In this document: positions 1 to 61,100 of the stretch, in pieces | How positions within the stretch are numbered: the stretch's first letter is position 1 | Layout: each line of letters starts with the position of its first letter | Assembly (NCBI GenBank): GCA_033119305.1 | Contig: VSWD01000007.1 | Span: forward strand, 57,858,741 to 57,922,740 | Reading direction: 5' to 3' | Length of the DNA stretch: 64,000 nt | Source: Pinctada imbricata | Taxonomy: Eukaryota | The notes under the pieces: model-generated | Told to the model about the DNA's origin: nothing | The model's database searches: none | Seen by the model: the letters and a program-made list of their open reading frames with translations, nothing else | Position numbers and translations under genes: made by a program

Positions 1-633
1 TTCACAAAGGACAGTGCAGGTACTGTTTCGCATGTGATTGAGCCTGTAGCTTTCGAATTCAAGCACGAGGGGCATAAAATTCAGTTTTCTTTCAATCAAG
101 AAAGAATTTCAAAGTTATCAGATATTGAGAACTTTATTCGAGACGGTAACTTCGAAAAAGCCTTATCTACTCTTGGTGAACAGAAATCCGCGCTTCAACA
201 AAGAAATAAGATCCTTAAAATTGCTGATAGACATGGTTGGGACACGGTGCACGAGTATTTGGACGACCCGTTGGCTGACAACAACGAGGATGCTGTTAAG
301 CTTCGCTATGCTGTTGGGCGTGCTGCACGCAAACGTTCATTCCGCACTAGACCCTATGATAATAGACGTAGAGGCGGCTCATTTTCCGCAAACGACTTTT
401 TTCGTGGCTTTAGCAACACGTTTAACTCCCAGAATTCCACAAAGCCAATCTATAATCAAGGGAGGCAGTTTGATCCGAGGTTTGGAGTCATGGCAGGATT
501 CCAATTCCCCAGAGACCGTAGTTGCTACTACTGCAGGCAGACAGGCCACCTCATGCGTGACTGCCCATTCACTAAGGCCCAACCCATCCCCGTACTGTCC
601 AGTTCCACCCCAGCTTCCACAAATAAGCAGTAG
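1..633 (+). CDS. Retrotransposon Gag-like protein (open at the window start) with a CCHC zinc knuckle
   Basis: ORF 34..633 reads open back to nt 1 in the same frame. It contains the motif CYYCRQTGHLMRDC (CX2CX4HX4C) and basic stretches. The RT-RNaseH ORF follows immediately. Confidence 0.7.
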   Translation, partial: FTKDSAGTVSHVIEPVAFEFKHEGHKIQFSFNQERISKLSDIENFIRDGNFEKALSTLGEQKSALQQRNKILKIADRHGWDTVHEYLDDPLADNNEDAVKLRYAVGRAARKRSFRTRPYDNRRRGGSFSANDFFRGFSNTFNSQNSTKPIYNQGRQFDPRFGVMAGFQFPRDRSCYYCRQTGHLMRDCPFTKAQPIPVLSSSTPASTNKQ

Positions 634-644
634 TGAAGTTGAGT

Positions 645-2607
645 ATGATTTTGATCATGATGAAGATTCTTTTGATTATGAAAAGTCTCAGAAAAATGTG
701 TCTGTAAAGTCCAAGTTAAGACAAAATGTAGAATTTTGGCAAAATGAATTAAAAGCAAACAATTTCATTTTATCTACCATCAAATTTGGTTATGTGATAC
801 CTTTTGCTCAATTTCCTCCAGCAATTATTTTGAAAAACAATAGATTATCTTTGAATTATCCAGATTTTGTATGTACTGCAATTAATGAACTTCTTTCTGC
901 AGGTTGTATAAACGAAGTTAGAGTTCCGTACGTTGTCAATCCCCTTACAGTGTCTGTAAATAGTTCTGGTAAAAAACGACTTGTTCTCGATTTGAGACAT
1001 GTTAATCGCTTTGTTCAAAAGCAAAAATTAAGTTTGAAGGAATTAAAGAGGCTTTAACATACGCAAAGAAAGGGTTGTTTATGATCAAATTCGATTTAAA
1101 GTCTGGGTATCACCATATAGATATTAATCCAAACAGTCAAAAATACCTTGGCTTTAGCTGGGAATTTGAAGGGAAGTTACGGTATTTTCAGTTTTCAGTC
1201 TTACCTTTTGGATTATCGTCGGCAGGTCATATTTTTACCAAGGTCGTTAGGGTGCTTGTGAAGTATTGGAGGTCAAGGGGAGTACCAATCATTGTTTACT
1301 TAGATGACGGATGGGTTTGCTCAGATTATCAAACTTGCAGAGAATTGTCAGAATTTGTGCAAAAAACCCTTAGTCTTTCTGGTTTTCAAGTAAATTTTGA
1401 GAAATCGTGTTTTGAACCGAAAGATATGATTGTTTGGTTAGGATTTTTATGGAATTTACAGGAAGGTAAAATCGAAGTTCCGCCCGAGAAGTTTCTTAGT
1501 GTACAGTCGGTCCTAAGGGATATATTACACAATATAGGTCATGTGACCGCTAGAAAGGTAGCTTCTTTTGTTGGAAAGATTATTTCGTTGAAACCTGCTT
1601 TGGGTACAGTTTGTCAAATGATGACCAGAAATTTAAGTGTTGCTTTGTGTAATAGAAAAGGTTGGGATCTGAACTTAGATTTACCATCTGTATGTAGACA
1701 GGAGTTAGAATTTTGGCTTAAAAGTCTTCATAGTTTGCCGAACGTGACGTTAACGCCAATAAGCGAAATTCCAGAAAAAATTATGTTTTCTGATGCTAGT
1801 TCATATGCCGCTGCAGGCTTTACTTTGGAGAGAAATACCAAAATTGTACATTATATGTGGAAAGATGATGAAAAGAATAAAAGTTCGACATGGAGGGAAC
1901 TAAAAACAATATGTTTGGTTTTGAAAGGCTTAGGTTCAGATTTGTCGGGAAAACTTGTCAAAATATACACGGACAATCAGAATGTCGTACGCATAGCTTG
2001 TAAAGGGAGTATGAAAATGGAGCTGCATCAGCTAGCTTTAGAAGTGTTGGGTTTCTGTGTGGCACACTCTATTAGATTAGAATTAGCATGGATACCGAGA
2101 GATTTGAATGCATACGCAGACGAATTGAGCAAAATATTTGATTTTGACGATTGGGAGGTCAGAGATGAAATATTTACGTTTTTGAATAAGAAATGGGGTG
2201 AATTTTCGTGTGATATTTTTGCAGCTTGCAAAAATAAGAAAGTCTCAAAATTTTTCTCAAAGTATTACAGTCCTGGTACCTCAGGTGTGGACGCTTTCGC
2301 TCAAAATTGGGATGGAGAAAATTGTTGGTTAGTCCCCCCACCCAACCTGATATGTAGAACGGTTTCTCATTTACGCATTTGCAAAGCATTTGGGGTTTTA
2401 ATTGTCCCTAGGTGGGAATCCGCATTATTTTGGCCAATTATTTGGGAGATAAAATACAAAAATTTCAGATATTTTGTCAGAGATTGGATAGAATTTGAGA
2501 GACCAAAGAATTTTTACAAAGCTGGCTCTGATAAGAACAGTATTTTTGCTTTAGATGTATTCCCAAGCAATGTACTAGTTTTAAAGTTGGATTTTCGTTA
2601 TGATTAG
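645..2607 (+). CDS. Pol: reverse transcriptase + RNase H + DIRS-type C-terminal domain, interrupted by one frameshift near 1015-1025
   Basis: The frame-2 ORF (to 1057) carries the RT N-terminal motifs (PLTVSVNSSGKKRLVLDLRHVNRF). The frame-1 ORF 1075..2607 carries FDLKSGYHHI, the YLDD catalytic box (IIVYLDDGWV) and the RNase H motif TDNQNV. Its tail (FSCDIFAACKN...VDAFAQNWDGENCWLVPPP) is of the kind seen after RNase H in DIRS-type elements. The frames join at an A-run (caaaagcaaaaatt). Confidence 0.8.
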
Positions 2608-2659
2608 TATTAGAGAATGTTAAATGTTGTTGGTATAGATGAATGGGCTTAAATTCAAA

Positions 2660-2800
2660 GGCACCATGTGCATTATGTATTCAATAAAGGCACCATGTGC
2701 AAAATGAAGAATAAGTTTTAATAAAGGCACCATGTGCGTACCGAAGAGATTACATAGAACATTCTAAGAAAAAATCATTGATTTCAAAAGCACCATGTGT
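2660..2800. repeat. Four spaced copies of AAAGGCACCATGTGC between pol and the YR ORF, followed by a poly(A) run at 2866-2894
   Basis: The copies are at about 2662, 2688, 2724 and 2780 (the last reads aaagcaccatgtg). Confidence 0.6.
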
Positions 2801-2865
2801 TTAGCATATTTTTAAAATGCATAAATGTGGCGAGAAGGAATTTGTCGATTTTGTAATGTGAGATA

Positions 2866-2896
<31 letters not shown>

Positions 2897-2970
2897 TTTA
2901 TTTTCATTAATTCGGTTTTATATAACTTTAGGCTTCCAGTCAAGTATGGACGGAAATTCAGCAGTTACGA

Positions 2971-3946
2971 TTGAGAGATGGCAGACTTTCATCCGCAGCA
3001 TCGGATATCCCTCGCATTATCAAAAAAGGCAAGAGCGACAACTCCAACAGAGTGTATGACGCCTATTTCAAAAAGTTTCAGCATTGGTGTAGTTCTTTCA
3101 GCGTTTCATCTATGCCCGCGTCTGTGAGTACTGTGGCCGTATATCTTAGTAGCCGTGTGCAGAAATCAGTGTCAGAATCAGTGTTATCTACCAATTTCTA
3201 TAGTATAAAGTGGCATCATGATATAAGTTTGTGTGCGAACCCATGCGATTCAAAAATTTTACACCTACTTATGGAAGGAGGGAAGAGGATTCTCAGTAAG
3301 CCCATTAATAAAAAGGAGCCGATCACCCCAGAAATATTGAAAAAGATAGTAGACAAATATGGCCAAGATGCAAATAAGAACAATTTATGTTAGAATTTGT
3401 TCTATGTTTTTGTTGGGGTTTTCAGGTTTTTTACGTTTCAGTGAACTTTCAAAACTCAAAGTGAAAAATATTTCTTTTCATGAATTACATATGTCTGTAC
3501 ATATTGAGGGTAGTAAAACTGATGTATATAGGCGTGGAAATAACGTTTTGATTGCTAGAACAAGTAAGGATACTTGTCCTGTATATTGGTTAAAACTTTA
3601 TTTAGATTTAGCTGGAATTTCTAAAAGTCCAGAAGATTTTATTTTTCGTTCTATTCGTTACTTTAAGTCTTCTGACAGTTATAAGCTTTGTAGCTGTAAT
3701 AGGCCCATCTCGTACACGAGAGCTCGTGAGTTATTGCATGACGCGTTAGCGTCTGTTGGTTTAGACACCAAATGTTTTGGTTTACATAGTCTCCGTAGCG
3801 GAGGTGCTACATCCGCCGCTGAAAATAATGTCAGTGATAGGCTTTTGAAATTACATGGTCGCTGGAAATCAGATTTATCAAGAGACAACTATATCAAGGA
3901 TTCCACCTCTAATCAGCTTAGTGTAACTAAAAAGTTGAATATCTAG
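2971..3946 (+). CDS. Tyrosine recombinase (phage-integrase-like) of a DIRS/Ngaro-type element, with a frameshift near 3355-3365
   Basis: Two overlapping ORFs, 2971..3393 and 3359..3946. The second carries YR boxes: LLGFSGFLRFSEL (Arg of box I), HSLRSGGAT (H-x-x-R) and LHGRWKSD...Y (catalytic Tyr region). Confidence 0.75.
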
Positions 3947-3979
3947 TTTTAGTATTAAAATTCTAGCCCTCTTTGTTTA

Positions 3980-4092
3980 CTCTATATAATCTAGCGAGCG
4001 GGAATTCCATATATTGTGTTTTTGTTATTTCTTATATGTATCATTTAATTGATTTATATTCGGACGAACAAAGTGAGGGAGAATATAATTAT
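3980..4092. repeat. Terminal direct repeat copy 1 (~113 bp) of the DIRS-like element
   Basis: ctatataatctagcgagcgggaattccatatattgtg...gagggagaatata recurs almost identically at 4436-4548. Confidence 0.8.
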
Positions 4093-4435
4093 AATTATAT
4101 GGGTAATGTTTGGAGAGTGTTCGATTGTTATTGTAATGAGGCTAGTCACGTGACGGTCAAGTATATACTAAGATAGCACGAGGTAGTGCGGCACTCTAGG
4201 CTCGCTCGCTAGTAGATGTAACGTGGTCAGTGGGTTATATAGGCAGATTTATACATGTAAATTTTTCGGGAGAGGGGGTGTGTTTTAAATAAAATCATTT
4301 ACTTAATTTCTGTAATATTTTGACTTAGTGTGGTGGTCTATGATTTGAGCTTATATCAAAATATTGATTTGTATGAAAAAACTTTTTCATGATATATGAT
4401 GTAACATTATTGAGGGTATGCAGAATATATGCGCT

Positions 4436-4548
4436 CACTATATAATCTAGCGAGCGGGAATTCCATATATTGTGTTTTTGTTATTTCTTATATGTATCAT
4501 TTAATTGATTTATATTCGGACGAACAAAGTGAGGGAGAATATAAATCT
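4436..4548. repeat. Terminal direct repeat copy 2
   Basis: Direct copy of 3980-4092, separated from it by ~345 bp. Confidence 0.8.
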
Positions 4549-6626
4549 TTGTATATGCATAGTCAAACTGTTTATAGATGCTCATGGGTATAGATGGCCG
4601 AGTCTACAATGATTTTTGAAGAATCTTTCTTTTACATTAAATTGTTTATTGAAAACGAATCTTTCAACTTTACGCGTGTTGTGATTACAGTGAATTTTAC
4701 ATCAAGTTTGGTTAAAAAAATCCTTTTCGTCATATTTTTTATTCTCATTTGGTAGAAACATTTAGTTGAAATTAGTGCAATATGTATGTAATGTTTTCTA
4801 CGTTTGTATTGTCCGGTATTACAGCTACATAGAGGCGTTTACCTCTTACTGTAATACCATGTATTGTGTGTTTGTTGCCATATACGATTGTGATGCTTGG
4901 ATGATGTCGGCCTGAGACGATGATGTCACCGATACCTGAGATGATGATATAACTGGTGTCAACTGAGATGACGTACATGTCTCAATGCGCAGTGTAATTG
5001 CATTGGAACCACGAATACAGACTTTTAAGAAATATAAGTACTTTTGTTATTCTGTTATTCTGTCATTGAAAATAACGAGTTTGAATTCTGGCTTTTGAAA
5101 CTTTGTGAATCATTTTGGTAACGTACTGAGTTCAAATATTCTCTTAATTTTGATAATTTCATTTACACATGCTTTGATCTATTTCAGAAGAATGATGCAG
5201 CCTAATGATGGTACACCTATTGCGTTTCAATTGGTGAAGGGAAGGAGTGATGGATAACCATTGAAGCAATGCGATTCGTTTGTGATGAAAGATTTCCGTA
5301 ACAAAGTGCGACTGGTGTACGTTGGTTCTGTCTAGCAGCATGGTTGATTGTTCTCAATGTCACCAGGTTGGAGATGAGACAATTAGTCAACGTGTAACAA
5401 TAACGTTCAAAGTAGTCAGTCTGAGACGTTTGAGATTGTTACGTACTGCTAATATAGTATACGACAGTTAGTCATGCTGAGATGTTAGTTCTTACTAGAA
5501 GATGATGATGTGGCTTTCTGACGATGACGACTGATGTTGGACTTAAGGAAGTCCTGGTGGATGATTACTCAGTGTCGCGGGAGGAGGATGATCACATTTT
5601 CGAACAGAACGATGCGTAAATCTACAAGGACAACTGGACAGGAAGCTGATGTGATTGACGACAGATGGATACAGAAACATGGACTGAACCGTGGATGAAA
5701 TATGCTGAACATTTTGAAATTTTATATGAACTCTTCTCTTTCAGAAATTTTGAATTGTAAATGTTTTATCATAGTGCTTTCTTTTCAGGATGTGAACTCT
5801 GTAGTGATTAATTGTTGGAACTTTGGACTTTGTATTGCTTGATTTGTGATTAACATAATGTGTTCATGTAATTCTATTTTTTTAGTTAAAATATTTGCCA
5901 ATATTTTAGTTTTAAGAAGGCAGGAGTGTGACGGGAACACATTATGTTAGGCTATTTTGATACCCCTATTTAATAGTAAGAACCCCATTTTTTGTATTGA
6001 TCTACCTGTATAACTTACCTGAGTTCAGATTTAACAGATTTATCGTATATATCTCTCGATAAGGATTTAAATGGTCGTCACTGTACTATATTTAGATTGT
6101 CAGGTGATCCGTAGAGTATATAAAGCGCGACATTGAGCTTGTAAGACGGGGAGCTACCTTTATTGCCGAAGGCAATCAGCTCTCCCTCTCCTCCTCCTCT
6201 CTCTCTCTCTAGCAATGGCTTAGGTTGGGCTCTGATAACTATGGGCAGGGGGGTAGATATTCGGACTTAGGCTAAATATTCTCTCTCTATATATGTACGT
6301 TTTCTGTTGTATTTGTCGTATCTATGTTGTTTTTATTAAAGTATCTAAATGTTATCCGTTTTCCTAGTCTTCTTTCATGTTAGTCTGTCATGTAAGGTGT
6401 TGGCTACAATATAGAAATCCTTCGGACCTGAAGACAGGCGCCCGCCCCTACCGGGTCCTGTTACATTCTTATCTTCTTGCTGTGCATCCTTCACAGAGTA
6501 CTCGTTAACGAGGGCGTGAAGTACACAGAGATAGATAGACTTCAACATTAAAGATAAAAGACATGTCTGAATGCCTTCAAGTTTTTTTCCACAAATTATA
6601 ATTTCCACTCACACCTAGTGTTCATG

Positions 6627-6687
<61 letters not shown>
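6627..6687. repeat. (TC)n microsatellite
   Basis: Perfect TC dinucleotide run of ~30 units. It generates the spurious ORF 6618-6827. Confidence 0.95.
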
Positions 6688-6690
<3 letters not shown>

Positions 6691-7004
6691 CAATTCGAGT
6701 CATTATTTTCAAAATTAGTTATAGGCCGATACGTCTAATTGTGGAGGCGGATCATTATCGCTTATATCATGTAAATGTAAACAAAACCAACAAACACAAA
6801 TTTCGTGTTTTCATCTTTTGTTGGTAATATATCAAATTCTCAGATTTATAAAGAAGGCAAATCTTGTCAAGTATGATGCAAACATTACTTCTGTAGGATT
6901 GCCTGCATTTCGACACAGCGATTTTACGCGATGTAAGGGACAACAGGTGATCGGACGTCATCCTGAAATGACAGCATTATTTTCAACTTTGTAAATACAC
7001 AAGG

Positions 7005-7022: not shown

Positions 7023-8277
7023 GTAAATAGATCAATGGATTATGAAAGACTAAGTAGATATCTCTTTTGCACTTTTTAGGATGATACTTGTGTATCTGGT
7101 GTTCTCATTTTCAAAGGGAATTTTAAACTTTGACAAATTTTATTATGACAGTATGACACATTGCCATTTATAGTTTTATCCCCATATGATATGTTTATAG
7201 ATCATTTATGTGAATAGTTTCAATGATACTGGTGTCAAAGCAGCAACCGAATGATTTTGAAGGGTTATTCACGGTAACTTCATTGTTTTGTCAAATTGAG
7301 ACATGAAACTAAGTAGAACAAATACAGTACTGCATACTGATGGTTGGCATTATCGAAGGGTATTTCGGACTTTCATCATCTTTTATGTCAAATCTTTTAA
7401 CCACAAGATTTCCTCTCAACTTCTCAACTTTGATCAAATGTAAAAGAAGAATGTTAACCTGGTTTTAGTGACCATGTCTTGTGTACGTATAATTTATTTC
7501 AATTTAATAATAGACATGAAGTATTTAAGTCGAAATTGCAATTTTAGCTTGTTTATACAATTTTTTTCACCATTCCAGAAACGATTTAAACACTTGAATG
7601 CATGTATGCACAAAGGGGAATCCCCGGTTACATGTACAAAAGTATTTATGCGCAGACATGAGTCAGGTCTTTCACCATTACATTGTATCAAATTTGAAAT
7701 GTGATGCAGCTTTGAGTGTCAAAGCACACGGGCGTCAAAGTTTTGCATTAGAAAATGCAAGCAAGAGCTCTGGTTACTTGTATTTAAAGAAAACGAAGTT
7801 GAAGTGTATATAAATATTATAAGAATGAAATATTTGCATCATTAAACTGTATTTTTGCTAGAGAAACAGTTCATACATCATACTACATGTAGTAATTAAG
7901 CCAACTGATATATCTTTGACTTATGTCAGTATGCATAATAACTAAAATGAAACATTTTGCCGAGTTTCCATAAAATTTGCTTTTAATAAAAAGTAACCGA
8001 AGTTATGGACAAATCATGAAATATTTTACAGTTTTGCAGTGTACGTATTGTAAAAATCTGATTATAATCGATAATCAATTGAATGGCTTATCCAATTGAT
8101 CAATTTTGATTACTCCATTTGATTCCCAACACTATGAGTATGATCATGATGATATGTAGCGTATTGTGAGCATTTTATATTGTTGTAGCCCTGTAGCATA
8201 CAATGTAAATAAAACTGATAAATCGCAATCAGCTAGGTTTATTCGGAATAATTTCTAAGTCTAATTGACAATTTCAG

Positions 8278-9072: not shown

Positions 9073-9202
9073 CCTGAGGGAACATTTATAGAATGGAAAG
9101 CTGAAGAGATTCTCCAAGTAGACGGTAACCAGGACCAAGACTGGGCCGTTATTGGATCCTCCCTGTCCGTGGGATATAAACCAGACAAAGATTCTGACGC
9201 AT
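9073..9202 (+). CDS. TBC1D15: TBC1D15 exon 3
   Basis: Encodes PEGTFIEWKAEEILQVDGNQDQDW..., corresponding to LEKDAEVIVDWRPLDD of TBC1D15; donor gtaagt. Confidence 0.8.
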
Positions 9203-9950: not shown

Positions 9951-11241
9951 TGAGTGTCTTACATTTACTTAATTCATTTTCCTGTGTACCATATTTGAAA
10001 ATTTAAGGTCTGTAAGGCAGAGTTGGAGCACATCCTTTTTTCCTCCATGTCATCTCTGTAAATTCTCCTTTATCCATGTGGTAAAGCCTAGTAGATGTTG
10101 TAAATATATTAATAGGTAATTATAGAATGTAATTATCTATGGTATTCATTAAAAATTTGTATCTTGTCATAGGACATAGTTGTTGTTTAGTTAAATCTCT
10201 CCCTGTCCTAAGGCAAGTGGGAGGGACATTTAGTTTCTGTCTTTTAGTAAATAAGTGTCTGCAGTGTTTTGTCAAAAATTTACATGTATTTGTCTTAAGG
10301 CAAATTAGTTTCTTTCAATTCAAATTTTGTCTTTTAGTTTTGTTTTTTAAAGGCAAATTAGTTTGTGAAATTGAAAGCTTGTCTTAAGGCAAAACTATAA
10401 ACTGAATGGATAAAAAATAATTGTCTAGTTCAAAGTTTGTCTTAAGGCAAGTTGTTTGTCCCAAAGCAAAGGTAGAAACTGAATGAAAATTTTATTTTTG
10501 CTTAGTTTAAAATTTGTCTTAAGTTAAGTTATGTCTTAAGGCAAAGGTAGAAACTAAATGAATTTAAAAAAATTTTTTTTTGTAATTTTAAATGTTGTCT
10601 TAAGGCAAGTTATATGTCTTAAGGCAAAATGTTATGCCTATGTTTAAAGTAAGAAAGCTTTGAACAGTATACATGTAAATACATGTCTTCAAGAAAGATG
10701 GAGATATTTTTAAATGGAGCAGTGGGACAAATGAAGATATTGTACTATTTTGAATTTAAAAATCCCATCTTGTCTTAAGTCAAATTTTATTGTTATATCG
10801 AGGGAATCAAGGAAATTATAACACTAGCCTCTTGTAATGAAAATAGATTTGCTTTAAGGCCTAAATTATGACAGGAATTTCTTGCTTTAAGGCAACAATA
10901 TCTCCTATATAAGAAAAATGTACTTATTTATTGTCATATACATGTACTGACACTGAGTGAAGAAAAAATATGGGTAGATTTAAGGTTCAGTACTTGAAAT
11001 TTTAGTTGATATTTATTGTACTTTTCGATTTACTGAAAAATTTTATTATACACGTATCAAGCCTGTTTAATTTCACATTACATGTTCTTTGCTGCTACTT
11101 GCATATGTCACATATTATGTTTACATATGTTCAAACTAGGAGTGAAGGCATCTCTTAACTTCTTCCATCTCCCCTTCCCATTTTACATGATGCGCAGGTG
11201 AGCTTTCTTTTCTTTTAAGTGCTATTTATTGTTTATTTCAG

Positions 11242-18429: not shown

Positions 18430-19263
18430 CAATGTTCACAAGGTTGTTCAAGCTTTTCAGTCCAAACTAATCTTGACATTTGACCCTTGACTTTGAAAAT
18501 CTATAGGTTCATCCTCTCCCTTTGTAGAAATTTGTGAAACGTCTGATGATTCTACTGATTGCTTTGTGTTCTATGCTACCAGGAAGGTAGTCCATAGCGA
18601 CCTTGACTTTTGACCCTTAAAATCAATAGAGTTCACCCTCTCTGTACGCAAAACATTTGTGGAAGGGTTGATGATTCTACTGATTGTCTTGTGTTATATG
18701 ATACCAGGAAGGTAGTCCATAGTGACCTTGACTTTTGACCCTTAAAATCAATAGAGTTCATCCTCTCTGTACGCAAAACATTTGTGGAAGGGTTGATGAT
18801 TCTACCGATTGCCTTGTGTTCTATGCTACCAGCAAGCTATTCCATAGTGACCTTGACCCTTAAAATCAATAGAGTTCATCCTCTCTGTATGCAAAATATT
18901 TGTGGAAGGGTTGATGATTCTACCGATTGCCTTGTGTTCTATGCTACCAGCAAGCTATTCCATAGTGACCTTGACCCTTAAAATCAATAGAGTTCATCCT
19001 CTCTGTATGCAAAACATTTGTGGAAGGGCTGATGATTCTACAATCATTGCTATATGTTAATAGCTGTCAAAAGGTATAGAAAGATGAGAAATAGGCATCC
19101 TCTCCCTATGAAAAACATTGGCAGATTTGATGATCCCTTGGTCCTTCATGCTGTTTACAATACTTTAACACAATGACATTGACCCTTTACCTTGAAAATC
19201 AACAGGAATCATCCTCTCCATACAGGAAACATGTGGAAAGTTGGATGATCCTACTAGATTGTG

Positions 19264-25136: not shown

Positions 25137-25320
25137 CCCTGATACATCTGCCACTCTGTGTATAGGTGCTTCTTTCTTGGCATGCATTCCCATGGCTTTC
25201 TTCTGAGCCCTAGCCTCTGCTGCTAACAGTTCATCATAGTGAGATGACCGCTGGTCATCCTCCGGCCGGTACCTTATGACTGTGGCCAATCCTTTACCCA
25301 CTAATGCTTCCGCTACATTT
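25137..25320 (-). CDS. SND1: SND1 exon 12
   Basis: Encodes [61 protein letters not shown]; coordinates checked against ORF 25077..25406. Confidence 0.9.
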
Positions 25321-25374
25321 CTGTAACACAAGACATGTATGTGCATTATAAGATGACTTAATATGGAGTTTTTA

Positions 25375-25640
25375 CAGTTCATCATAGTGAAATGACCCCT
25401 GATCATCCTCTGGCTGGTACCTTATCACTGTGGCCAATCCTTTACCCACTAATGCCCCAGTTGCATTTCTGTTCCACAAAATATACATATACATTATCTA
25501 ACATGACTTAATATGGAGTAGTTACTGTTAATCATAGGGAGATGACCGCTGGTCATCCTTGAGCCGGTACCTTATCACTATTGCCAATCCTTCGCCCACT
25601 GATGCTTAGGCTACATTTCTGTTACACAAAACATACTTTA
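25375..25640 (-). pseudogene. Two degenerate tandem copies of the SND1 exon-12 5' portion plus adjacent intron (pseudo-exons)
   Basis: A ~140-150-bp unit (cagttcatcatagtgagatgaccgctggtcatcc...ccactaatgcttccgctacatttctgt...) is present three times (25195-25330 is the real one; copies ~25375-25470 and ~25525-25630). The copies have substitutions and an in-frame stop. Confidence 0.7.
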
Positions 25641-42894: not shown

Positions 42895-44186
42895 TTAACC
42901 CAAAAATATCTTTCTACGATTAAACATAAGATATAGTGTCTTTGCAACATCATGTTGTAAACTGATATGATTCATCAAAAAACATAATTTATCTTTATCT
43001 GATAAGTGTTCAAAACTTTCATATATATTAATAGCTTTAGAATACAATTCAAATCTAATATCTGAATAAAGATCACATTGAAGCAGAAAGTGTTTTTCAT
43101 CCTCAACTTCATTTTTATCACAAAATTTACATAATCTTTGATCTAACGGGATAATAGGCTTGACATATCTACATGTTTCAATTGCTAATGGAAGTGAGCC
43201 ACTTCTAAAGTTTGCATAAATTTTTCTATATAAACGACTATTTACCAGTTTTACATAAGGGCTTGTACTCAAGAAAGATTTGTATTCTCTAAATGTTCTT
43301 AATTTGTTTCCATTTTCTAAATTCTTATCATTATACAATTGATTATACCACTCTAAACAGTCCTTTTCATAAATAACATCATTAATTAAACCCATTTTCA
43401 ATTTTGTACTCCAGTTTCTGTGAATGATATCCTGGATATTCAAGTCTGCAGCCATTTTTAATACAGTGGAGTCCCATGATCTCTGGAGATTCAATGACGC
43501 TGCATGAATTTTAGTTACATATCTATTATTGCTGAAAGATTGAATTCTCAAGAGAAGCCTGAAAGTTTCCAAAATTTGCTTCGAATGAGTACTAATAAAT
43601 CCCATATCACCTCTAGATGCAGTATTTGATGCATTTTTGCGTAACCCTAAAAAATATCTACACGCCTTATTTTGGACAACACTTATTTCTCTCCATTTAT
43701 TCAAACCCCAGATCAACAAAGGTTCTGTAAAGCTTAGTGAAAACATCATAGGTCATACCACCACAGTATAAGAACTTAGTGTATAATGCTGATAGAGCCC
43801 TACTTGCAGATTTTCTGACTTCTTTCACTGTAAATCTATAATCCAAAAATTCATTTAATGACACACCAAGATATCTATAGCTTGAATCGTAGTCAATATC
43901 CAGATCACCACATTTAAAGGAAAATTTGGATCTTGTTACACGAGATCCCCTAAAATGCAGAATTTTAGTTTTCTCTTTATTTATTGTAAGGCGCCATTTC
44001 TTACACCACATAGCTACAGTATCAAGCATAATTTGCAATTTATTTTCATCTGGTGCAATAAGTGCAATATCATCAGCATATAAAAGTACTGATAAATTAA
44101 GTTCATCATCAATGTCTATTCCAGATAATGTCAGTAACGCTGAGCGTGCAAACAACGTCTACCCCTGCGTTAATCCAATTATCTAA
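42895..44186 (-). mobile_element. 5'-truncated non-LTR (LINE) retrotransposon fragment: RT domain plus the C-terminal part of ORF2
   Basis: ORF 43697..44155 carries the RT motifs LLYADDIALIAPDE (YADD box) and KTKIL. ORF 42895..43749 continues as an ORF2 C-terminal region. It lies inside the IR-bounded unit. Confidence 0.7.
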
Positions 44187-52039: not shown

Positions 52040-54790
52040 TGGACAAATTAAATCAAATGTTTTTCAGAAAAAAACAGATGTCTCCCCCCTCCCTCTAAGT
52101 TACTTTGAGCTTGGGCCAAGATGATGTGAAACCTTTGAGTCATGGGCAACACCATACTAAAACATGAAAGTGATTGTTTTAGGTAAAGCCCAAACATGAT
52201 TAGCATATACAATTTCATATTTAGTGAAATTGACTTTGGTCACATGACCTTGGATATAGGTGATCTGAAAAATACATTGTATGGATCATGCGCAACAAAA
52301 AACTGAATTAGTGATTGGATACACGATTCAAAATATAAAGCCTAAACATGATAAGCATAACAATTTCAGCCTGGACATGATTTGCATATACAATTTCATT
52401 ACCAAAGTAAGAAGTGACCTCAATCATGTGACCTTGGGACAATGTGATAAGAAACATTTAGTCCTGAGAAACAACGAATTAAAATATGAAAACAATTGTA
52501 AGAAGGGTTCAGCAGATATAGCCCAGACAAGATTAGTACGTACAATTTCATTAAAAAGAACTAAATGATCTTGACCTTGGGCACATGACCTTGGGTCAAG
52601 ATGATAAGAAACCTTCCAATCCTGAGCAACAGCATTCTAAAGTATCAGAGCGATCCAGTATACGATTCCACAGATATAGTCTAGACTCAATAGTATTTAC
52701 AATTTCATTAAAAAATGTAATATCTGACCTTGACCTTAGTAATATGACCTTGGATCAAGGTGGTGTGAAACCTTTGGGTCATCAGCACCATCATACTAAA
52801 ATATCAAATGATCCGATTACAGTTCAAAAGATTAAGCCTGGACATAATACACATAACAAATACAATTTCATTTAAAATACATGTATACTAATTGACCCTG
52901 ACCTTGGTCACATGATCTTGAGTCAACATGATGTGAAACCTTTGGGTCATAAGCAACAACATACTAAAATATAAAGCGATCCGGCAAACCGTTCAAGAGA
53001 TATAGCCCGGACAGGAATGCATGTACAATTTCATTAAAATTGTACTATATGACCTTGACCTTGGTCACATGACCTTGGGTCAAGGTGATGCAAAACCTTT
53101 GGGTCATAAGCAACAACATACTAAAATATGAAACTGATCCGGCAAACAGTTCAAGAGATCAAGCCTGGACATGACTGTATGCATAATTTCATTAAAAATG
53201 CACTAAGTGACCTTGACCTTGGTCACATGACCTTGGGTCAAGGTGATGTGAAATCTTTGGGTCATAAGCAAAAACATACTAAAATATGAAAGTGATCTGG
53301 CAAACGGTTCAAGAGATATAGCCCGGACAGGAATGTATTCATAATATCTTTAAACATGCAGTAAGTGATCTTGACCTTGGTCACATGACCTTTGGTCAAG
53401 GTGATGCAAAACCTTTGGGTCATAAGCAACAACATACTAAAATATGAAAGTGATCTGGCAAACGGTTCAAGAGATCTAGCCTGGACATGAATGTATGCAT
53501 AATTTCATTAAAAATGCACTAAGTGACCTTGACCTTGGTCACATGACCTTGGGTCAAGGTGATGTGAAATCTTTGGGTCATAAGCAACAACATACTAAAA
53601 TATGAAAGTGATCTGGCAAACGGTTCAAGAGATATAGCCCGGACAGGAATGTATTCAAAATATCTTTAAACATGCAGTAAGTGATCTTGACCTTGGTCAC
53701 ATGACCTTGAGTCAAGGTGATGCAAAACCTTCGGGTCATAAGCAACAACATCCTAAAATATGAAAGTGATCCGGCAAACGGTTCAAGAGATATAGCCTGG
53801 ACATGAATGTTTGCATAATTTCATTAAAAATGCACTAAGTGACCTTGACCTTGGTCACATGACCTTGGGTCAAGGTGATGCGAAACCTTCGGGTCATAAA
53901 CATCAACATACTAAAATATGAAAGTGATCCGGCAAACGGTTCAAGAGATCTAGCCCAGACAGGAATGTATGCTTAATTTCATTAAAAATGCACAAAGTTA
54001 CCTTGACCTTGGTCACATGACCTTGGGTCAAGGTGATGTGAAATCTTTGGGTCATAAGCAACAACATACTAAAATATGAAAGTGATCCGGTTAAAGGTTC
54101 AAGAGATATAGCCCAGACAGGAATGTTTTCATAATTTCTTTAAAAATGCACTAAGTGACCTTGACCTTGGTCACATGACCTTGGGTCAAGGTGATGTAAA
54201 ATCTTTGGGTCATAAGCAACTACATACTAAAATATGAAAGTGATCCGGCAAACGGTTCAAGAGATATAGCCCGGACAGGAATGTATTCATAATTTCTTTT
54301 AAAATGCACTAAGTGACCTTGACCTTGGTCACATGACCTAGGGTCAAGGTGATGCAAAACCTTCGGGTCATAAACAACAACATACTAAAATATGAAAGTG
54401 ATCCGGCAAACAGTTCAAGAGATCTAGCCCGGACAGGAATGTATTCATAATTTCTTTAAAAATGCACTAAGTGACCTTGACCTTGGTCACATGACCTTGG
54501 GTCAAGATGATGTGAAACCTTCGGGTCATAAGCAACAACATACTAAAATATGAAAGTGATCCGGCAAACGGTTCAAGAGATCTAGCCCGGACAGGAATGT
54601 ATGCATAATTTCATTAAAAATGCACTAAGTGACCTTGACCTTTGTCACATGACCTTGGGTCAAGGTGATGTGAAACCTTCGGGTCATAAGCAACAACATA
54701 CTAAAATATGAAAGTGATCGGGCAAACGGTTCAGGAGATATAGCCCGGACACGATGTGTGACAGACGGACAGACAGACAGACGGTTGACG
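52040..54790. repeat. Tandem satellite array, ~150-166-bp unit, ~17 copies (very homogeneous in the 53000-54750 part)
   Basis: The anchor tgaccttgaccttggtcacatgaccttgggtcaaggtgatg recurs at 53048, 53213, 53378, 53527, 53693, 53842, 54005, 54163, 54312, 54474 and 54633. The array ends in (GACA)n plus the hairpin gtctcctccccgtttggggggagac. It lies in an intron of gene C. Confidence 0.9.
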
Positions 54791-54889: not shown

Positions 54890-55590
54890 AAAGCCTACAA
54901 TTTATAGTATGCAACAAATCTGCTTTCAAATCTTCTTAACTTAAACTGCAACATTAATCCAAAGTCAAGGTCACAAGTCATGATACCAAACTGTAGTACT
55001 CTTTGAGGTAAATGTTTGCATGAAATATGAAAGACCTACCATTTATAGTATGAAAGAAATCTGCTTTCAAAATTTCTTACCTGTCCTAATTTCAACATAA
55101 GCCCAAACTCAAGGTCAAGGTCAAAAGACCAAAATGTAGTACTCTTTGTGGTGAATGTGTGTATGAAATATGAAAGGCCTACCATTTATAGTATAAAAGA
55201 AATCTGCTTTCAAAGCATCTTAACATAAAATGTTATACGGGGTGAACGTCAAGATCACAGGGTCAAAAGTCATGGAACCAAAATGTAGTACTCTCAAACG
55301 TCATGGTACCAAAATGTAGTACTCTTTACGGTGAATGTGTGTATGAAATATGAAAGGCCTACCATTTATAGTTTAAAAGAAATCTGCTTTAAAAACATCT
55401 TAACATAAAATGTTATACAGGGTGAAGGTCAAGATCACAGGGTCAAAAGTCATGGTAACAAAATGTAGTACTCTCAAACATCATGGTACCAAAATGTAGT
55501 ACTCTTTATGGTGAATGTGTGTATGAAATATGAAAGGCCTACCATTTTAAAAGTATACAAGAAATCTGCTTTCAAAACTTCTTAACTGGA
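54890..55590. repeat. Second tandem repeat, ~180-bp unit with ~4 copies, immediately 3' of the first array
   Basis: The unit ...gtgaatgtgtgtatgaaatatgaaaggcctaccatttatagt...ggtcaaaagtcatgg...aaatgtagtactct... recurs at ~54970, 55150, 55330 and 55510. Confidence 0.8.
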
Positions 55591-60070: not shown

Positions 60071-60429
60071 TGTGTCAATTTTAAGAGTATAAACAAATCA
60101 AAACAACTTCATTATCACAAAAATAATCTTAAGATAATTTTGCTATAAATGCTTTTACTTATATGCATCCCTATATTACACTGATATCAACACATTACTG
60201 CAGACATTAACTGTACGTATGTAAATCATTTTAAAATGTTTTAAAATTGTCTCATACAGAATTATACCCATGTCTATGATACAAACAACAAAGAGTCATT
60301 TACTTTGTTTAGATGAGGTACCAACAAGTTAAAAGAATTAAAATAGGGAAGAAGCACAAGTAATCATAGATTACGAAGCTCACCTCGTGGCAGCAAAATT
60401 AAATTCAAACATATTTCTAAGTACATGTA

Positions 60430-61100
60430 TATTGCCTTTTAAAGGTAAAATCACTCAAGTGGAAAAAGTAGGTCAAGGTCATTTTATGAAAGTTTCATCA
60501 AAGAAACATCCAATATGCAAGTTTGGTACATGTAGCACTTATACTTTGCTCAATATTGGCTTTTAAAGGTAAAATCACTCACGCGGAAAAAGTAGGTCAA
60601 GGTCATTTTATGAAAGTTTCATCAAAGATACATCTAACATTCAAGTTTGGTACATGTAGCACTTATACTTTGCTCAATATTGGCTTTTCAAGGTAAAATC
60701 ACTCACACGGAAAAAGTAGGTCAAGGTCATTTTATGAAAGTTTCATCAAAGATACATCCAATATTAAAGTTTGGTACATGTAGCACTTATACTTTGCTCA
60801 ATATTGGCTTTTAAAAGCAAAATCACTCAAGTGGAAAAAGTAGGTCAGTTGCTGCTTCCGATGCATGTTTCCATCTCGACATCCCAAGATGAATCACTTG
60901 AGCAAGTTTGGTTACTGTAGCATCAGTACTTTGTGAGATACTGAGCTACCCCAAACTTCTTAACCAAGCCACTCTGAGCTACCCAGCATCTAATCCATGG
61001 GTTCACCTCAGCATCAAAAGATGAATCACTTGTGCAAGTTTGGTTACTGTAGCATCAGTACTTTGCCAAATACTGAGCTACCCCAAACTTCTTAACCGGA
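60430..61100. repeat. Two adjacent tandem repeats: a ~121-bp unit ×3.5 (60430-60850) and a ~120-bp unit ×2 (60850-61100)
   Basis: ttttaaaggtaaaatcactcaagtggaaaaagtaggtcaaggtcattttatgaaagtttcatcaaag... repeated; then ..caagatgaatcacttgagcaagtttggttactgtagcatcagtactttg.. repeated. Confidence 0.85.

What the first reader, a model, noticed from the sequence alone, without database searches (positions are those of the whole stretch)
1..4550. DIRS/Ngaro-type tyrosine-recombinase retrotransposon with gag-RT/RH-YR order, two frameshifts and split 3' direct repeats
A YLDD reverse transcriptase with RNase H is followed by a phage-integrase-like tyrosine recombinase in place of a DDE integrase. This defines the YR retroelement class (DIRS, Ngaro, PAT), which is much rarer than LTR or LINE elements. 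Pol switches frame in an A-run near 1015-1025. The YR ORF switches frame near 3360. So this copy is either defective or both sites are homopolymer sequencing errors. A ~113-bp sequence occurs twice, at 3980 and 4436, consistent with the split-direct-repeat ends of Ngaro-type elements. Four spaced copies of AAAGGCACCATGTGC sit just upstream of the YR ORF, in a position where an internal promoter or regulatory array could lie.
Basis: partly seen in the sequence, partly recalled or inferred. Interest (0 to 1): 0.55.

Follow-up and report, generated by a model that had tools for sequence, protein, structure and literature searches.

The report
PAT-like tyrosine-recombinase retrotransposon, damaged oyster copy
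This is one damaged copy, cut off at its 5' end by the window edge, of a known but uncommon kind of jumping gene (a PAT-like, DIRS-order retrotransposon) in a pearl-oyster genome; the element itself is ordinary, but comparison with relatives suggests its recombinase is made from a spliced messenger RNA, much as retroviruses make env.

Summary
Window 1-4544 (+) carries gag (CCHC knuckle), RT (YLDD)/RNase H, a tyrosine recombinase with all Cre-type catalytic residues, a 107-nt perfect direct repeat (3982-4088 = 4438-4544), four GCACCATGTG(C/T) motifs and two frameshifts.

The host is a Pinctada pearl oyster. Sibling copies there are 98-99% identical in protein.

The "Ngaro-type" label is wrong. 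Pol ends in the PCIF1/Dam-like pseudo-methyltransferase domain that Ngaro lacks. The RT groups with PAT-like references (53% identity to Repbase DIRS-1_CGi) and never with Ngaro. Seven intact bivalve relatives all show A1-gag-pol-YR-B1-A2-B2. It is therefore a PAT-like ("echinoderm-form Pat1-like") element.

Intact siblings show that the pol shift is one A lost from an A-run. The YR shift is a 5-nt deletion at 3388, so it is not a homopolymer error.

New here:
- The YR ORF has no start codon.
- An invariant AA|GTTGAGTAT donor just after the gag stop (window 638) and a T-rich YAG acceptor (2931|2932) are conserved in all relatives.
- Two RefSeq gene models use these same sites. This points to a spliced subgenomic YR mRNA.
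- The repeat array lies inside that intron, not at an obvious internal promoter.

It is a new member of a known kind, of modest interest.

The parts
1..633 (+). gag ORF in frame 1. The 5' end is cut by the window edge, so about 54 codons plus the A1 repeat are missing. The CCHC zinc knuckle is at about 520-567 and the stop codon TAG is at 631-633.
   Evidence: The zf-CCHC hit has E 3.8e-6. P0121, a Pinctada imbricata gag of 264 aa, differs at 1 residue over the 210 aa seen in the window.
356..637 (+). Leader ORF in the pol frame (frame 2), overlapping the 3' part of gag. The ATG is at 356-358. This is the inferred shared N-terminus of Pol (from unspliced RNA) and YR (from spliced RNA).
   Evidence: The window translation MIIDVEAAHFPQTTFFVALATR aligns with the start of RefSeq model P0185, MKDAEEALRPVTFFVALASR. 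Which AUG is really used is inference.
638..646 (+). Inferred 5' splice donor GTTGAGTAT, beginning 4 nt after the gag stop codon.
   Evidence: AA|GTTGAGTAT is invariant in 8 of 8 elements while the flanking sequence varies. It is used as the donor in RefSeq models P0185 (locus L008) and P0193 (locus L009).
632..2607 (+). Pol body: RT at about 968-1446 (YLDD at 1297-1308), RNase H at about 1777-2133, and the PCIF1/Dam-like MT-like domain at 2146-2604. The stop codon is at 2605-2607. It reads in frame 2 up to about 1020 and in frame 1 afterwards.
   Evidence: RVT_1 scores E 4e-17; RT_RNaseH, RVT_3 and RNase_H give weak hits; Dam scores E 3.6e-7. The AlphaFold model has pLDDT 94 and its top Foldseek hits are PCIF1/CAPAM. 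P0001, a Pinctada sibling, is 99% identical.
1021..1025 (+). Frameshift lesion 1: one A is missing from an A-run (A5 here, A6 in an intact sibling).
   Evidence: P0156, a Pinctada copy, reads ...RFVQKQKIKFEGIKEAL in one frame. The window needs one extra A to do the same.
2657..2800 (+). Array of 4 spaced copies of AAAGGCACCATGTGC. The core GCACCATGTG(C/T) is an imperfect palindrome, GCAC-N3-GTGC. The array lies between the pol stop and the YR acceptor.
   Evidence: Found. The same core in the same position occurs 4 times in Saccostrea L008, at least 11 times in M. edulis L009, 6 to 10 times in L006 and once in the truncated L002. A variant array is present in L007.
2871..2896 (+). A26 homopolymer inside the pol-YR spacer.
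   Evidence: No equivalent long A-run is seen in the L001, L006, L007, L008 and L009 spacers read; the L005 spacer has an (AAAAG)x7.6 tract.
2897..2931 (+). Inferred 3' splice site: a T/A-rich tract ending in TTTAG. The AG at 2930-2931 is part of the in-frame TAG that closes the YR frame upstream.
   Evidence: A T-rich tract plus YAG lies 4 to 7 codons before a conserved Trp in 7 of 7 elements, and is in phase with the donor in 6 of 7. RefSeq models P0185 and P0193 use the homologous AG.
2932..3946 (+). Tyrosine recombinase exon. It reads in frame 1 up to 3387 and in frame 2 from 3389. There is no in-frame ATG before codon 61. The catalytic residues R, K, H-x-x-R, W and Y are all present.
   Evidence: Phage_integrase scores E 1.6e-8. 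It aligns along its length to Cre and Tre (E 6e-6 to 5e-5), with R173, K201, H289, R292, W315 and Y324 equivalents conserved. P0184, a Pinctada sibling, is 98% identical and starts at the same ASSQVW....
3385..3390 (+). Frameshift lesion 2: a 5-nt deletion. The intact sibling reads ...NKNNLSHVRICSM and the window reads ...NKNNL|VRICSM with one stray T at 3388.
   Evidence: Comparison of P0184 with the window. This is not a homopolymer context.
3982..4088 (+). B1 repeat (107 nt). Its 3' end, TATATTCGGACGAACAAAGTGAGGGAGAATATAA, is conserved across elements.
   Evidence: B1 and B2 are 107/107 identical. The B-end motif is found twice each in the window, L001, L006 and L008.
4089..4257 (+). A2 repeat. 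The start at 4089 is firm. The end near 4257 is inferred by analogy and cannot be fixed without A1. It contains CACGTG (4147-4152) and a TATA-like box (4162-4168).
   Evidence: The A start TTATAATTATATGGG aligns with the L001 and L008 starts TTAAAATTAT.... The CACGTG plus TATAAATA pair is conserved in L001 and L008.
4258..4437 (+). Non-repeated spacer between A2 and B2. Its boundary with A2 is inferred.
   Evidence: Relatives also carry a variable spacer: about 102 nt in L001 and about 930 nt with tandem repeats in L005.
4438..4544 (+). B2 repeat. [quoted passage not shown]
4203..4212 (+). CGCTCGCTAG within A2, complementary to CTAGCGAGCG at the start of B (3991-4000 and 4447-4456).
   Evidence: Only 2 of 1000 shuffles reach this match length. 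A complement occurs at the equivalent position in L001, at 9 nt in L009 (13 of 1000 shuffles) and weakly in L008. L005 has a 12-nt complement of entirely different sequence at A offset about 205 (0 of 1000 shuffles).

Best explanation
Window 1-4544 is the 3' nine-tenths of one copy of a young, multi-copy PAT-like ("echinoderm-form Pat1-like") tyrosine-recombinase retrotransposon of the DIRS order, in a Pinctada pearl-oyster genome.

**Layout.** The family layout is A1, gag (CCHC), pol (RT, RNase H, inactive PCIF1/Dam-like MT domain), spacer with a palindromic repeat array, YR, B1, A2, spacer, B2. Only the 5' end (A1 and 54 gag codons) falls outside the window.

**How it works. Shown steps:**
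- The protein set is gag, RT/RH/MT-like and a Cre-like recombinase with an intact active site.
- The repeats are split direct repeats.
- The copy carries two frameshifts, so it cannot make Pol or YR itself.

**Inferred from relatives and from the established model for split-direct-repeat elements:**
- Transcription starts in A1, which carries a CACGTG plus TATA pair.
- The internal B1-A2 junction templates the joining of the cDNA ends.
- YR inserts the product by site-specific recombination across a 1-3 nt AT(T) overlap, without a target-site duplication.

**Inferred here from conservation plus two RefSeq gene models:**
- Unspliced RNA serves as genome and as gag/pol mRNA.
- A spliced subgenomic RNA (donor 637|638 just after the gag stop, acceptor 2931|2932) removes RT/RH/MT and the repeat array.
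- That splice joins a 94-codon leader in the pol frame to the YR exon, so YR, which has no start codon of its own, can be translated.
- The conserved GCACCWTGTGC array is therefore an intronic cis-element. It most likely tunes splicing or the export of unspliced RNA. Its real function is unknown.
For: **Host and family**
- The best hits are Pinctada imbricata proteins at 98-100% identity, on four contigs of different length.

**Domains**
- The MT-like fold matches PCIF1. This agrees with Iyer et al. 2016 (PMC4738411), who place the DIRS1-type MTase in the PCIF1 clade and consider it inactive. The motif here is VPP(P/I) where I recall the active PCIF1 enzyme carrying NPPF (own knowledge; VPP(P/I)).
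- The YR active site is complete.

**Classification**
- The RT is 53% identical to PAT-like DIRS-1_CGi, 38% to PAT and SkowPat, and 19-27% to Ngaro elements.
- In the NJ bootstrap, the window groups with DIRS1_CGi, SkowPat and PAT in 143 of 200 replicates, and with Ngaro in 0 of 200.
- The YR is 54.5% identical to DIRS-1_CGi and 28% to an oyster Ngaro.
- The feature-based scheme is from PMC4157794. The reference labels are from PMC6681497.

**Split direct repeats**
- A1...B1-A2-B2 is found in L001, L005, L006, L007, L008 and L009.
- The window's B1 and B2 are 107/107 identical.

**Frameshifts**
- P0156 and P0184 are intact across the two frameshift sites.

**Splicing**
- The donor is invariant in 8 of 8 elements, and the acceptor is present in 7 of 7 and in phase in 6 of 7.
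- RefSeq models P0185 (Saccostrea) and P0193 (Mytilus edulis) map to exactly these sites with GT-AG borders.
- The YR N-terminal 60 residues are conserved yet lie upstream of the first in-frame Met.
Against: - A1 is not in the window, so the full A1...B1A2B2 layout of this particular copy is inferred from relatives.
- I could not retrieve upstream DNA.
- The splice model rests on sequence conservation and on computational RefSeq models. I could not inspect any RNA-seq support for them, and no transcript reads were examined.
- Two M. trossulus models (P0012, P0120) instead splice from near the pol 3' end, and in L007 the nearest acceptor is out of phase with the 5' donor.
- The NJ tree uses one 197-column RT alignment and gives only 72% support for the PAT-like grouping.
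- PAT-like is itself not monophyletic in published trees (PMC6681497).
Confidence: 0.88

Rival explanations
1. It is an Ngaro-type element: gag, RT/RH and YR with split direct repeats and no methyltransferase domain.
For: Split direct repeats lie downstream of YR. Among the few non-PAT references I could compare, the YR is more similar to an oyster Ngaro YR (28% identity, E 4e-15) than to DIRS-like YRs.
Against: An MT-like domain is present. The RT is only 19-27% identical to Ngaro RTs, against 53% to PAT-like DIRS-1_CGi. It never groups with Ngaro in 200 bootstraps, while the Ngaro references themselves group together in 198 of 200.
Confidence: 0.03
2. It is a DIRS1-like element in the strict sense: inverted terminal repeats plus an internal complementary region, with the direct repeat being incidental.
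For: It carries the MT-like domain typical of DIRS1 and PAT elements. A short inverted complementarity exists between A and the start of B. Elements begin and end with an AT(T) overlap like the one reported for DIRS1-like termini (PMC3266345).
Against: The repeat arms are direct and 100% identical. Six intact relatives have direct A1/A2 and B1/B2 pairs; in the three scanned for inverted repeats (L001, L005, L006) no long terminal inverted repeats were found (direct pairs also in L007-L009). The RT groups with PAT, SkowPat and DIRS-1_CGi rather than with the 16 DIRS-like references.
Confidence: 0.04
3. YR is expressed from an internal promoter formed by the GCACCATGTGC array, and not by splicing.
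For: The array lies 130-275 nt upstream of the YR ORF. It is conserved in position and core sequence across oysters and mussels. Palindromic repeats are typical of protein-binding sites.
Against: No in-frame ATG precedes the conserved N-terminal 60 residues of YR in the window or in its intact sibling P0184. A T-rich YAG acceptor sits right at the opening of the ORF in all elements. Two RefSeq models splice across the array.
Confidence: 0.12
4. Both frameshifts are assembly or sequencing errors, and the copy is actually intact and autonomous.
For: The pol shift lies in an A5/A6 run, a classic long-read error context. B1 and B2 are identical, as expected for a recent insertion.
Against: The YR shift is a 5-nt deletion in non-repetitive sequence relative to P0184. 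That is not a typical homopolymer error. The 107-nt repeat is also too short for its identity to say much about age.
Confidence: 0.1

Closest known systems
DIRS-1_CGi (Repbase, Crassostrea gigas), labelled PAT-like in Ribeiro et al. 2019 (PMC6681497)
   Same: It is the closest reference. The RT is 53% identical over 178 aligned positions and the YR catalytic region is 54.5% identical. It shares RT motifs such as DL(K/R)SGYHHI and YLDDG, and its host is also a bivalve.
   Different: It is a different family, with only about half the residues shared. I had only its RT, RH and YR alignment blocks, so its repeats, spacer array and splice signals could not be compared.
Echinoderm-form Pat1-like elements (SpPat1; reported in Lottia, Nematostella and Romanomermis; Szitenberg et al. 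2014, PMC4157794)
   Same: [quoted passage not shown]
   Different: No SpPat1 sequence was available for direct comparison. The bivalve clade has a variable unique spacer between A2 and B2, and a repeat array between pol and YR, neither of which is mentioned in the papers held.
PAT (Panagrellus redivivus) and SkowPAT (Saccoglossus)
   Same: The RT is 38% identical to each, and they group together in 143 of 200 bootstraps.
   Different: Nematode-form PAT has its internal repeats between MT and YR (PMC4157794). Here they lie downstream of YR.
Ngaro elements (DrNgaro1, DIRS-6_CGi and DIRS-7_CGi)
   Same: It shares a YR in place of a DDE integrase, and an A1...B1-A2-B2 split direct repeat downstream of YR.
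   Different: Ngaro elements lack the MT-like domain and have a clearly different RT (19-27% identity). The window never groups with them.
Simple retroviruses, and LTR elements with a spliced env or ORF3 mRNA
   Same: The inferred strategy is the same. Full-length RNA serves for gag/pol and as genome, and a subgenomic mRNA is made by splicing from a donor near the gag-pol border to an acceptor before the 3' gene. This is an analogy from general knowledge.
   Different: The 3' gene here is the recombinase rather than an envelope protein. The terminal repeats and the integration chemistry are unrelated. The splicing is not experimentally shown.

Membership tests
DIRS order (tyrosine-recombinase retrotransposons) | Reverse transcriptase plus RNase H of the LTR-retroelement type | tested here: met
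   RVT_1 scores E 4e-17 and YLDD is at 1297-1308. RT_RNaseH, RVT_3 and RNase_H give weak hits at 1777-2133.
DIRS order (tyrosine-recombinase retrotransposons) | Tyrosine recombinase with its catalytic residues, in place of a DDE integrase | tested here: met
   Phage_integrase scores E 1.6e-8. R, K, H-x-x-R, W and Y align to Cre R173, K201, H289, R292, W315 and Y324. No integrase or protease family was hit in any ORF scanned. In relatives, A1 abuts gag, leaving no room for an upstream integrase.
PAT-like / Pat1-like (echinoderm form) | Methyltransferase-like domain downstream of RNase H | tested here: met
   Pfam Dam scores 30.5 bits (cut-off 28.1) on window 2146-2604, and 21 of 21 relatives match. 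The AlphaFold model has pLDDT 94. The top Foldseek hits are PCIF1/CAPAM, with E 2.4e-5 and TM 0.68-0.70.
PAT-like / Pat1-like (echinoderm form) | Split direct repeats: B1 and B2 flanking A2, located downstream of YR | tested here: met
   B1 (3982-4088) equals B2 (4438-4544) at 107/107. A2 starts at 4089 and is homologous to the A repeats of L001 and L008.
PAT-like / Pat1-like (echinoderm form) | An A1 copy of A2 at the 5' end of the same element | not testable with these tools
   The window starts inside gag, and upstream DNA could not be fetched. The feature is met in six intact relatives (seven loci): L001 (L003 is the same locus in another sample), L005, L006, L007, L008 and L009.
PAT-like / Pat1-like (echinoderm form) | Zinc-finger motif in gag and YR in the same orientation as pol | tested here: met
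   zf-CCHC scores E 3.8e-6. All ORFs are on the + strand.
PAT-like / Pat1-like (echinoderm form) | RT groups with PAT-like reference elements | tested here: met
   NJ tree on the published RT alignment: the window groups with DIRS1_CGi, SkowPat and PAT in 143 of 200 bootstraps. The support is moderate, and no maximum-likelihood tree was run.
Ngaro | Absence of the MT-like domain | tested here: not met
   The domain is present.
Ngaro | RT groups with Ngaro references | tested here: not met
   0 of 200 bootstraps, with 19-27% identity.
DIRS1-like in the strict sense | Inverted terminal repeats with an internal complementary region | tested here: not met
   The 3' repeats are direct. Relatives have direct A1/A2 and B1/B2 pairs; L001, L005 and L006 were scanned for inverted repeats and showed no long terminal ones; L007-L009 were checked for direct pairs only. 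Only a 9-12 nt inverted match between A and B exists.

The most novel reading that the evidence does not exclude
Bivalve PAT-like elements express their recombinase in a retrovirus-like way. A donor that is invariant across the clade (AA|GTTGAGTAT, just after the gag stop) is spliced to an acceptor at the first codon of the start-codon-less YR ORF. The roughly 2.2-3.1 kb intron holds RT/RH/MT and a conserved array of GCAC-N3-GTGC palindromes, which would govern the balance between spliced and unspliced RNA. None of the YR-retrotransposon papers I could search mentions splicing.
Probability: 0.35. Interest if true: 0.5.

Novelty: new member of a known kind. Interest (0 to 1): 0.33.

Why it matters
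**The element itself.** It is routine repeat annotation. DIRS-order and PAT-like elements are already known in molluscs at low copy number (PMC3266345, PMC4157794, PMC10294476, PMC8905726). Its practical value is in correct labelling. The Pinctada proteins from this family are deposited as 'hypothetical' and the mussel and oyster ones as 'integrase/recombinase xerD homolog', so they should be masked as transposon-derived.

**The comparative by-products.** These are more useful.
- They give a testable account of how a YR ORF with no start codon is expressed.
- They pinpoint three conserved non-coding elements: the donor, the intronic palindrome array and the A-to-B complementarity.
- These could be mutated in a retrotransposition assay. 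That would help a transposon class whose replication is still largely modelled rather than measured.

Tried and rejected
1. **Extending the window 5' to see A1.** Exact-protein look-ups for P0001, P0121 and two window ORFs found no contig, so A1 of this copy remains unseen.
2. **A second copy in the window.** There is none. Only poly-A tracts match.
3. **PDB sequence-profile search with the MT-like domain alignment.** No hit, even at E 10. The fold search was needed instead.
4. **Rfam on 1-6000 at E up to 1.** Nothing found.
5. **Biopython bootstrap.** It timed out and was replaced by a numpy distance and NJ routine.
6. **A third frameshift at the A-run 3021-3026, linking ATG 2946 (frame 3) to the YR frame.** Rejected. 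The frame-1 translation from 2932 aligns with relatives and with sibling P0184 from its first residue.
7. **A pol-YR fusion by splicing at the conserved SN|GTA near the pol end (window 2571|2572), as in M. trossulus models P0012 and P0120.**
   - It is in frame in four elements.
   - It is disfavoured because NVLVLKL is the last beta-strand of the confidently modelled MT-like domain, so the nucleotide conservation is explained by the protein.
   - P0012 and P0120 also come from deleted copies.
8. **E-box or Kozak readings of GCACCATGTGC.** Rejected as general explanations, because mussel elements have GCACCTTGTGC.
9. **Nested insertion of two unrelated transposons.** Rejected, because the same gag-pol-YR-repeat layout recurs in six relatives from oysters and mussels.

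Full report
**Observation.** The region reads as described.

- Frame 1 holds a gag fragment (1-633) with a CCHC knuckle (E 3.8e-6).
- A 510-codon ORF (1075-2607) has RVT_1 (E 1.7e-15), weak RNase H hits and a Dam-family hit.
- ORFs at 2971-3393 and 3359-3946 together make a Phage_integrase protein.
- The pol frame changes from frame 2 to frame 1 in the A-run at 1021-1025. The YR frame changes from frame 1 to frame 2 at 3388.
- The reported direct repeat (120 nt, 96%) is really 107 nt at 107/107 identity, 3982-4088 = 4438-4544.
- GCACCATGTGC occurs three times exactly and once with one mismatch between 2657 and 2800. The window has 8 matches at up to 1 mismatch against about 1 expected.
- The window holds no second copy. 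It is 34% GC and clearly eukaryotic.

**Host and family.** The best protein hits are Pinctada imbricata hypothetical proteins.

- For pol, P0001 is 99% identical.
- For gag, P0121 has 1 difference in 210 residues.
- For YR, P0184 is 98% identical.
- P0156 and P0203 are further copies.

These lie on four contigs of different length. The family is therefore young and multi-copy in pearl oysters. P0121 shows that the window lacks the first 54 gag codons. The truncation is due to the window edge and is not shown to be biological.

**Classification.** Three lines of evidence agree.

1. *The MT-like domain.* The pol C-terminus (2146-2604) is a methyltransferase-like domain.
   - Scanned alone, it passes the Pfam Dam cut-off (30.5 against 28.1 bits), and all 21 aligned relatives match.
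   - An AlphaFold model has mean pLDDT 94.
   - Its best solved-structure matches are the cap-adenosine N6-methyltransferase PCIF1/CAPAM (E 2.4e-5, TM 0.68-0.70).
   - This reproduces Iyer et al. 2016 (PMC4738411), who place the DIRS1-type MTase in the PCIF1 clade and regard it as inactive. Here the strand-4 motif is VPP(P/I) where I recall the active PCIF1 enzyme carrying NPPF (own knowledge; VPP(P/I)).
   - Published schemes use this domain to separate DIRS and PAT from Ngaro and VIPER (PMC4157794; PMC3266345).

2. *RT and YR similarity.* I added the window RT to the published RT alignment of Ribeiro et al. 2019 (PMC6681497, supplement 16).
   - It is 53% identical to Repbase DIRS-1_CGi, which that paper labels PAT-like.
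   - It is 38% identical to PAT and to SkowPAT, 26-36% to DIRS-like elements and 19-27% to Ngaro.
   - NJ bootstrapping groups it with DIRS1_CGi, SkowPat and PAT in 143 of 200 replicates, and with Ngaro in 0 of 200.
   - The YR is 54.5% identical to DIRS-1_CGi and 28% to an oyster Ngaro.

3. *Repeat layout.* Six intact relatives (seven loci, L003 being L001's locus in another sample) were fetched from metagenome and genome contigs.
   - They are L001 (L003 is the same locus in another sample), L005, L006, L007 (Mytilus trossulus), L008 (Saccostrea cucullata) and L009 (M. edulis).
   - All have direct A1/A2 and B1/B2 pairs arranged A1-gag-pol-YR-B1-A2-spacer-B2.
   - No long inverted terminal repeats were found in L001, L005 and L006, the three relatives scanned for them.
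   - The last 35 nt or so of B (TATATTCGGACGAAC..AGTGAGGGAGAATATAA) and the first 10 nt or so of A (TTAAAATTAT) are conserved between elements whose pol proteins are only 54-63% identical.

With a zinc-finger gag and the internal repeats downstream of YR, this is the 'echinoderm-form Pat1-like' architecture of Szitenberg et al. 2014. It is not Ngaro.

**The recombinase.** After frame correction, the YR aligns along its length to Cre and Tre (E 6e-6 to 5e-5). It keeps equivalents of R173, K201, H289, R292, W315 and Y324.

**The frameshifts.**
- P0156 reads ...RFVQKQKIKFEGIKEAL without interruption. The window has lost one A from an A6 run. This could be a real mutation or a homopolymer miscall.
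- P0184 reads ...NKNNLSHVRICSMF. The window reads ...NKNNL, then a stray T, then VRICSMF, which is a 5-nt deletion in non-repetitive sequence. This is most likely a real lesion.

As assembled, the copy cannot encode YR. The identity of B1 and B2 is compatible with a recent insertion, but 107 nt is too short to date it.

**Expression of YR (inference, partly supported).** In the window and in its intact sibling P0184, the YR frame opens directly after a TAG (2929-2931). It has no in-frame ATG for 60 codons, even though those codons are conserved across relatives.

- *Acceptor.* In all seven elements a T-rich tract ending in YAG lies 4-7 codons before a conserved Trp.
- *Donor.* At the other end, AA|GTTGAGTAT is invariant in 8 of 8 elements, within about 10 nt after the gag stop, while its flanks vary freely.
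- *Phase.* The donor is in phase 0 of the pol frame (it is read as V-E-Y). The acceptor is in phase 0 of the YR frame in 6 of 7 elements, although intron lengths differ in their remainder modulo 3.
- *Gene models.* Two RefSeq models use exactly these sites. P0185 in Saccostrea has exon 1 at 3001-3267, then GTTGAG...TTTAG, then exon 2 from 5491. P0193 in M. edulis joins 3375 to 6017. Both join a leader in the pol frame that overlaps the 3' part of gag (M...FFVALA(S/T)R...) to YR, skipping RT/RH/MT.
- *In the window.* The corresponding features are ATG 356, donor 637|638 and acceptor 2931|2932, giving a 2294-nt intron.

I could not inspect transcript evidence, so this remains a prediction. None of the DIRS-focused papers I searched mentions splicing. 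The two main reviews were not available.

**The repeat array.**
- The GCACCWTGTGC core (GCAC-N3-GTGC) recurs between the pol stop and the acceptor in several elements.
  - Saccostrea has 4 copies with an identical core.
  - M. edulis has at least 11 copies at 27-nt spacing.
  - L006 has 6-10 copies.
  - The truncated L002 has one.
  - M. trossulus has a variant 28-nt array.
- L001 and L005 lack the exact core.
- Conservation of an 11-nt non-coding core between oyster and mussel elements argues for function.
- Its position inside the inferred intron, together with the missing YR start codon, makes a splicing or export role more plausible than an internal promoter. Neither has been tested. The stem bases never vary, so an RNA hairpin and a DNA palindrome cannot be told apart.

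**Other conserved cis features.**
- A carries CACGTG followed about 15 nt later by TATA(A)ATA in the window, L001 and L008. This fits a promoter in A1.
- A 9-12 nt segment in A is complementary to the first bases of B.
  - This holds in the window, L001, L009 and L005, and weakly in L008.
  - L005 uses an entirely different 12-mer.
  - Only 0-13 of 1000 shuffles reach the observed match lengths.
  - Its role is unexplained.
- Element ends overlap by 1-3 nt (T, AT or ATT) with the internal B1|A2 junction. This resembles the 3-nt circular-junction overlap described for DIRS1-like elements (PMC3266345).

**Verdict.** This is a genuine but ordinary transposon copy. It is PAT-like rather than Ngaro, defective, and from a family that was recently active in Pinctada. 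The comparative splice-site and cis-element observations are the only parts with some novelty.

Noticed in passing
window 4203-4212 vs 3991-4000 and 4447-4456; L001 10427-10436 vs 10236-10245; L005 9438-9449 vs 9082-9093; L009 7318-7326 vs 7114-7122: A short segment inside repeat A is the reverse complement of the first bases of repeat B. The pairing is kept even where the sequence is entirely different (the L005 12-mer), which suggests a functional A-B duplex in RNA or cDNA. Its role is unknown.
   Followed up: partly
window 4147-4168; L001 about 10373-10400; L008 about 6768-6795: A conserved CACGTG palindrome is followed about 15 nt later by a TATA(A)ATA box inside repeat A. This looks like the element's promoter. 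The prokaryotic promoter scanner was not used because it would be meaningless here.
   Followed up: partly
window 2871-2896: An A26 homopolymer lies inside the pol-YR spacer, about 35 nt before the inferred acceptor. No relative read has an equivalent long A-run (L005 carries an (AAAAG) tract). It may be copy- or family-specific, or a length artefact.
   Followed up: no
window 42895-44155 (- strand): Two adjacent ORFs (284 and 152 aa) carry a ...LLYADDIALIA... motif. They look like the C-terminal part of a LINE-type reverse transcriptase remnant.
   Followed up: no
window 52506-54751; also 18485-19041, 25226-25636, 55128-55586 and 60429-60847: A 158-bp satellite of about 14 units, plus several other tandem arrays with periods of 118-180 bp. 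A (TC)29 microsatellite lies at 6629-6687.
   Followed up: no
L001 10678-11170: In the closest intact relative, B2 is followed at once by a 145-bp tandem repeat of about 3.4 units. It is unclear whether this belongs to the element or to the target site.
   Followed up: no
protein hits P0025 and P0028: Two close pol homologues (45-48% identity, on contigs of 2-3 kb) are deposited as proteins of 'Candidatus Thiodiazotropha' MAGs. These are most likely bivalve host transposon fragments binned into symbiont genomes.
   Followed up: no
protein hits P0154, P0165, P0171 and P0177: Mytilus gene models named 'organic solute transporter subunit alpha' and 'CHCHD2' match this gag. They are probably chimeric annotations that have absorbed a transposon ORF.
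   Followed up: no
window 125-1057 (frame 2): The pol reading frame stays open for about 170 codons upstream of the gag stop, overlapping gag. Whether Pol and YR start at the internal ATG at 356 by leaky scanning, or through a +1 frameshift from gag, is unresolved.
   Followed up: partly
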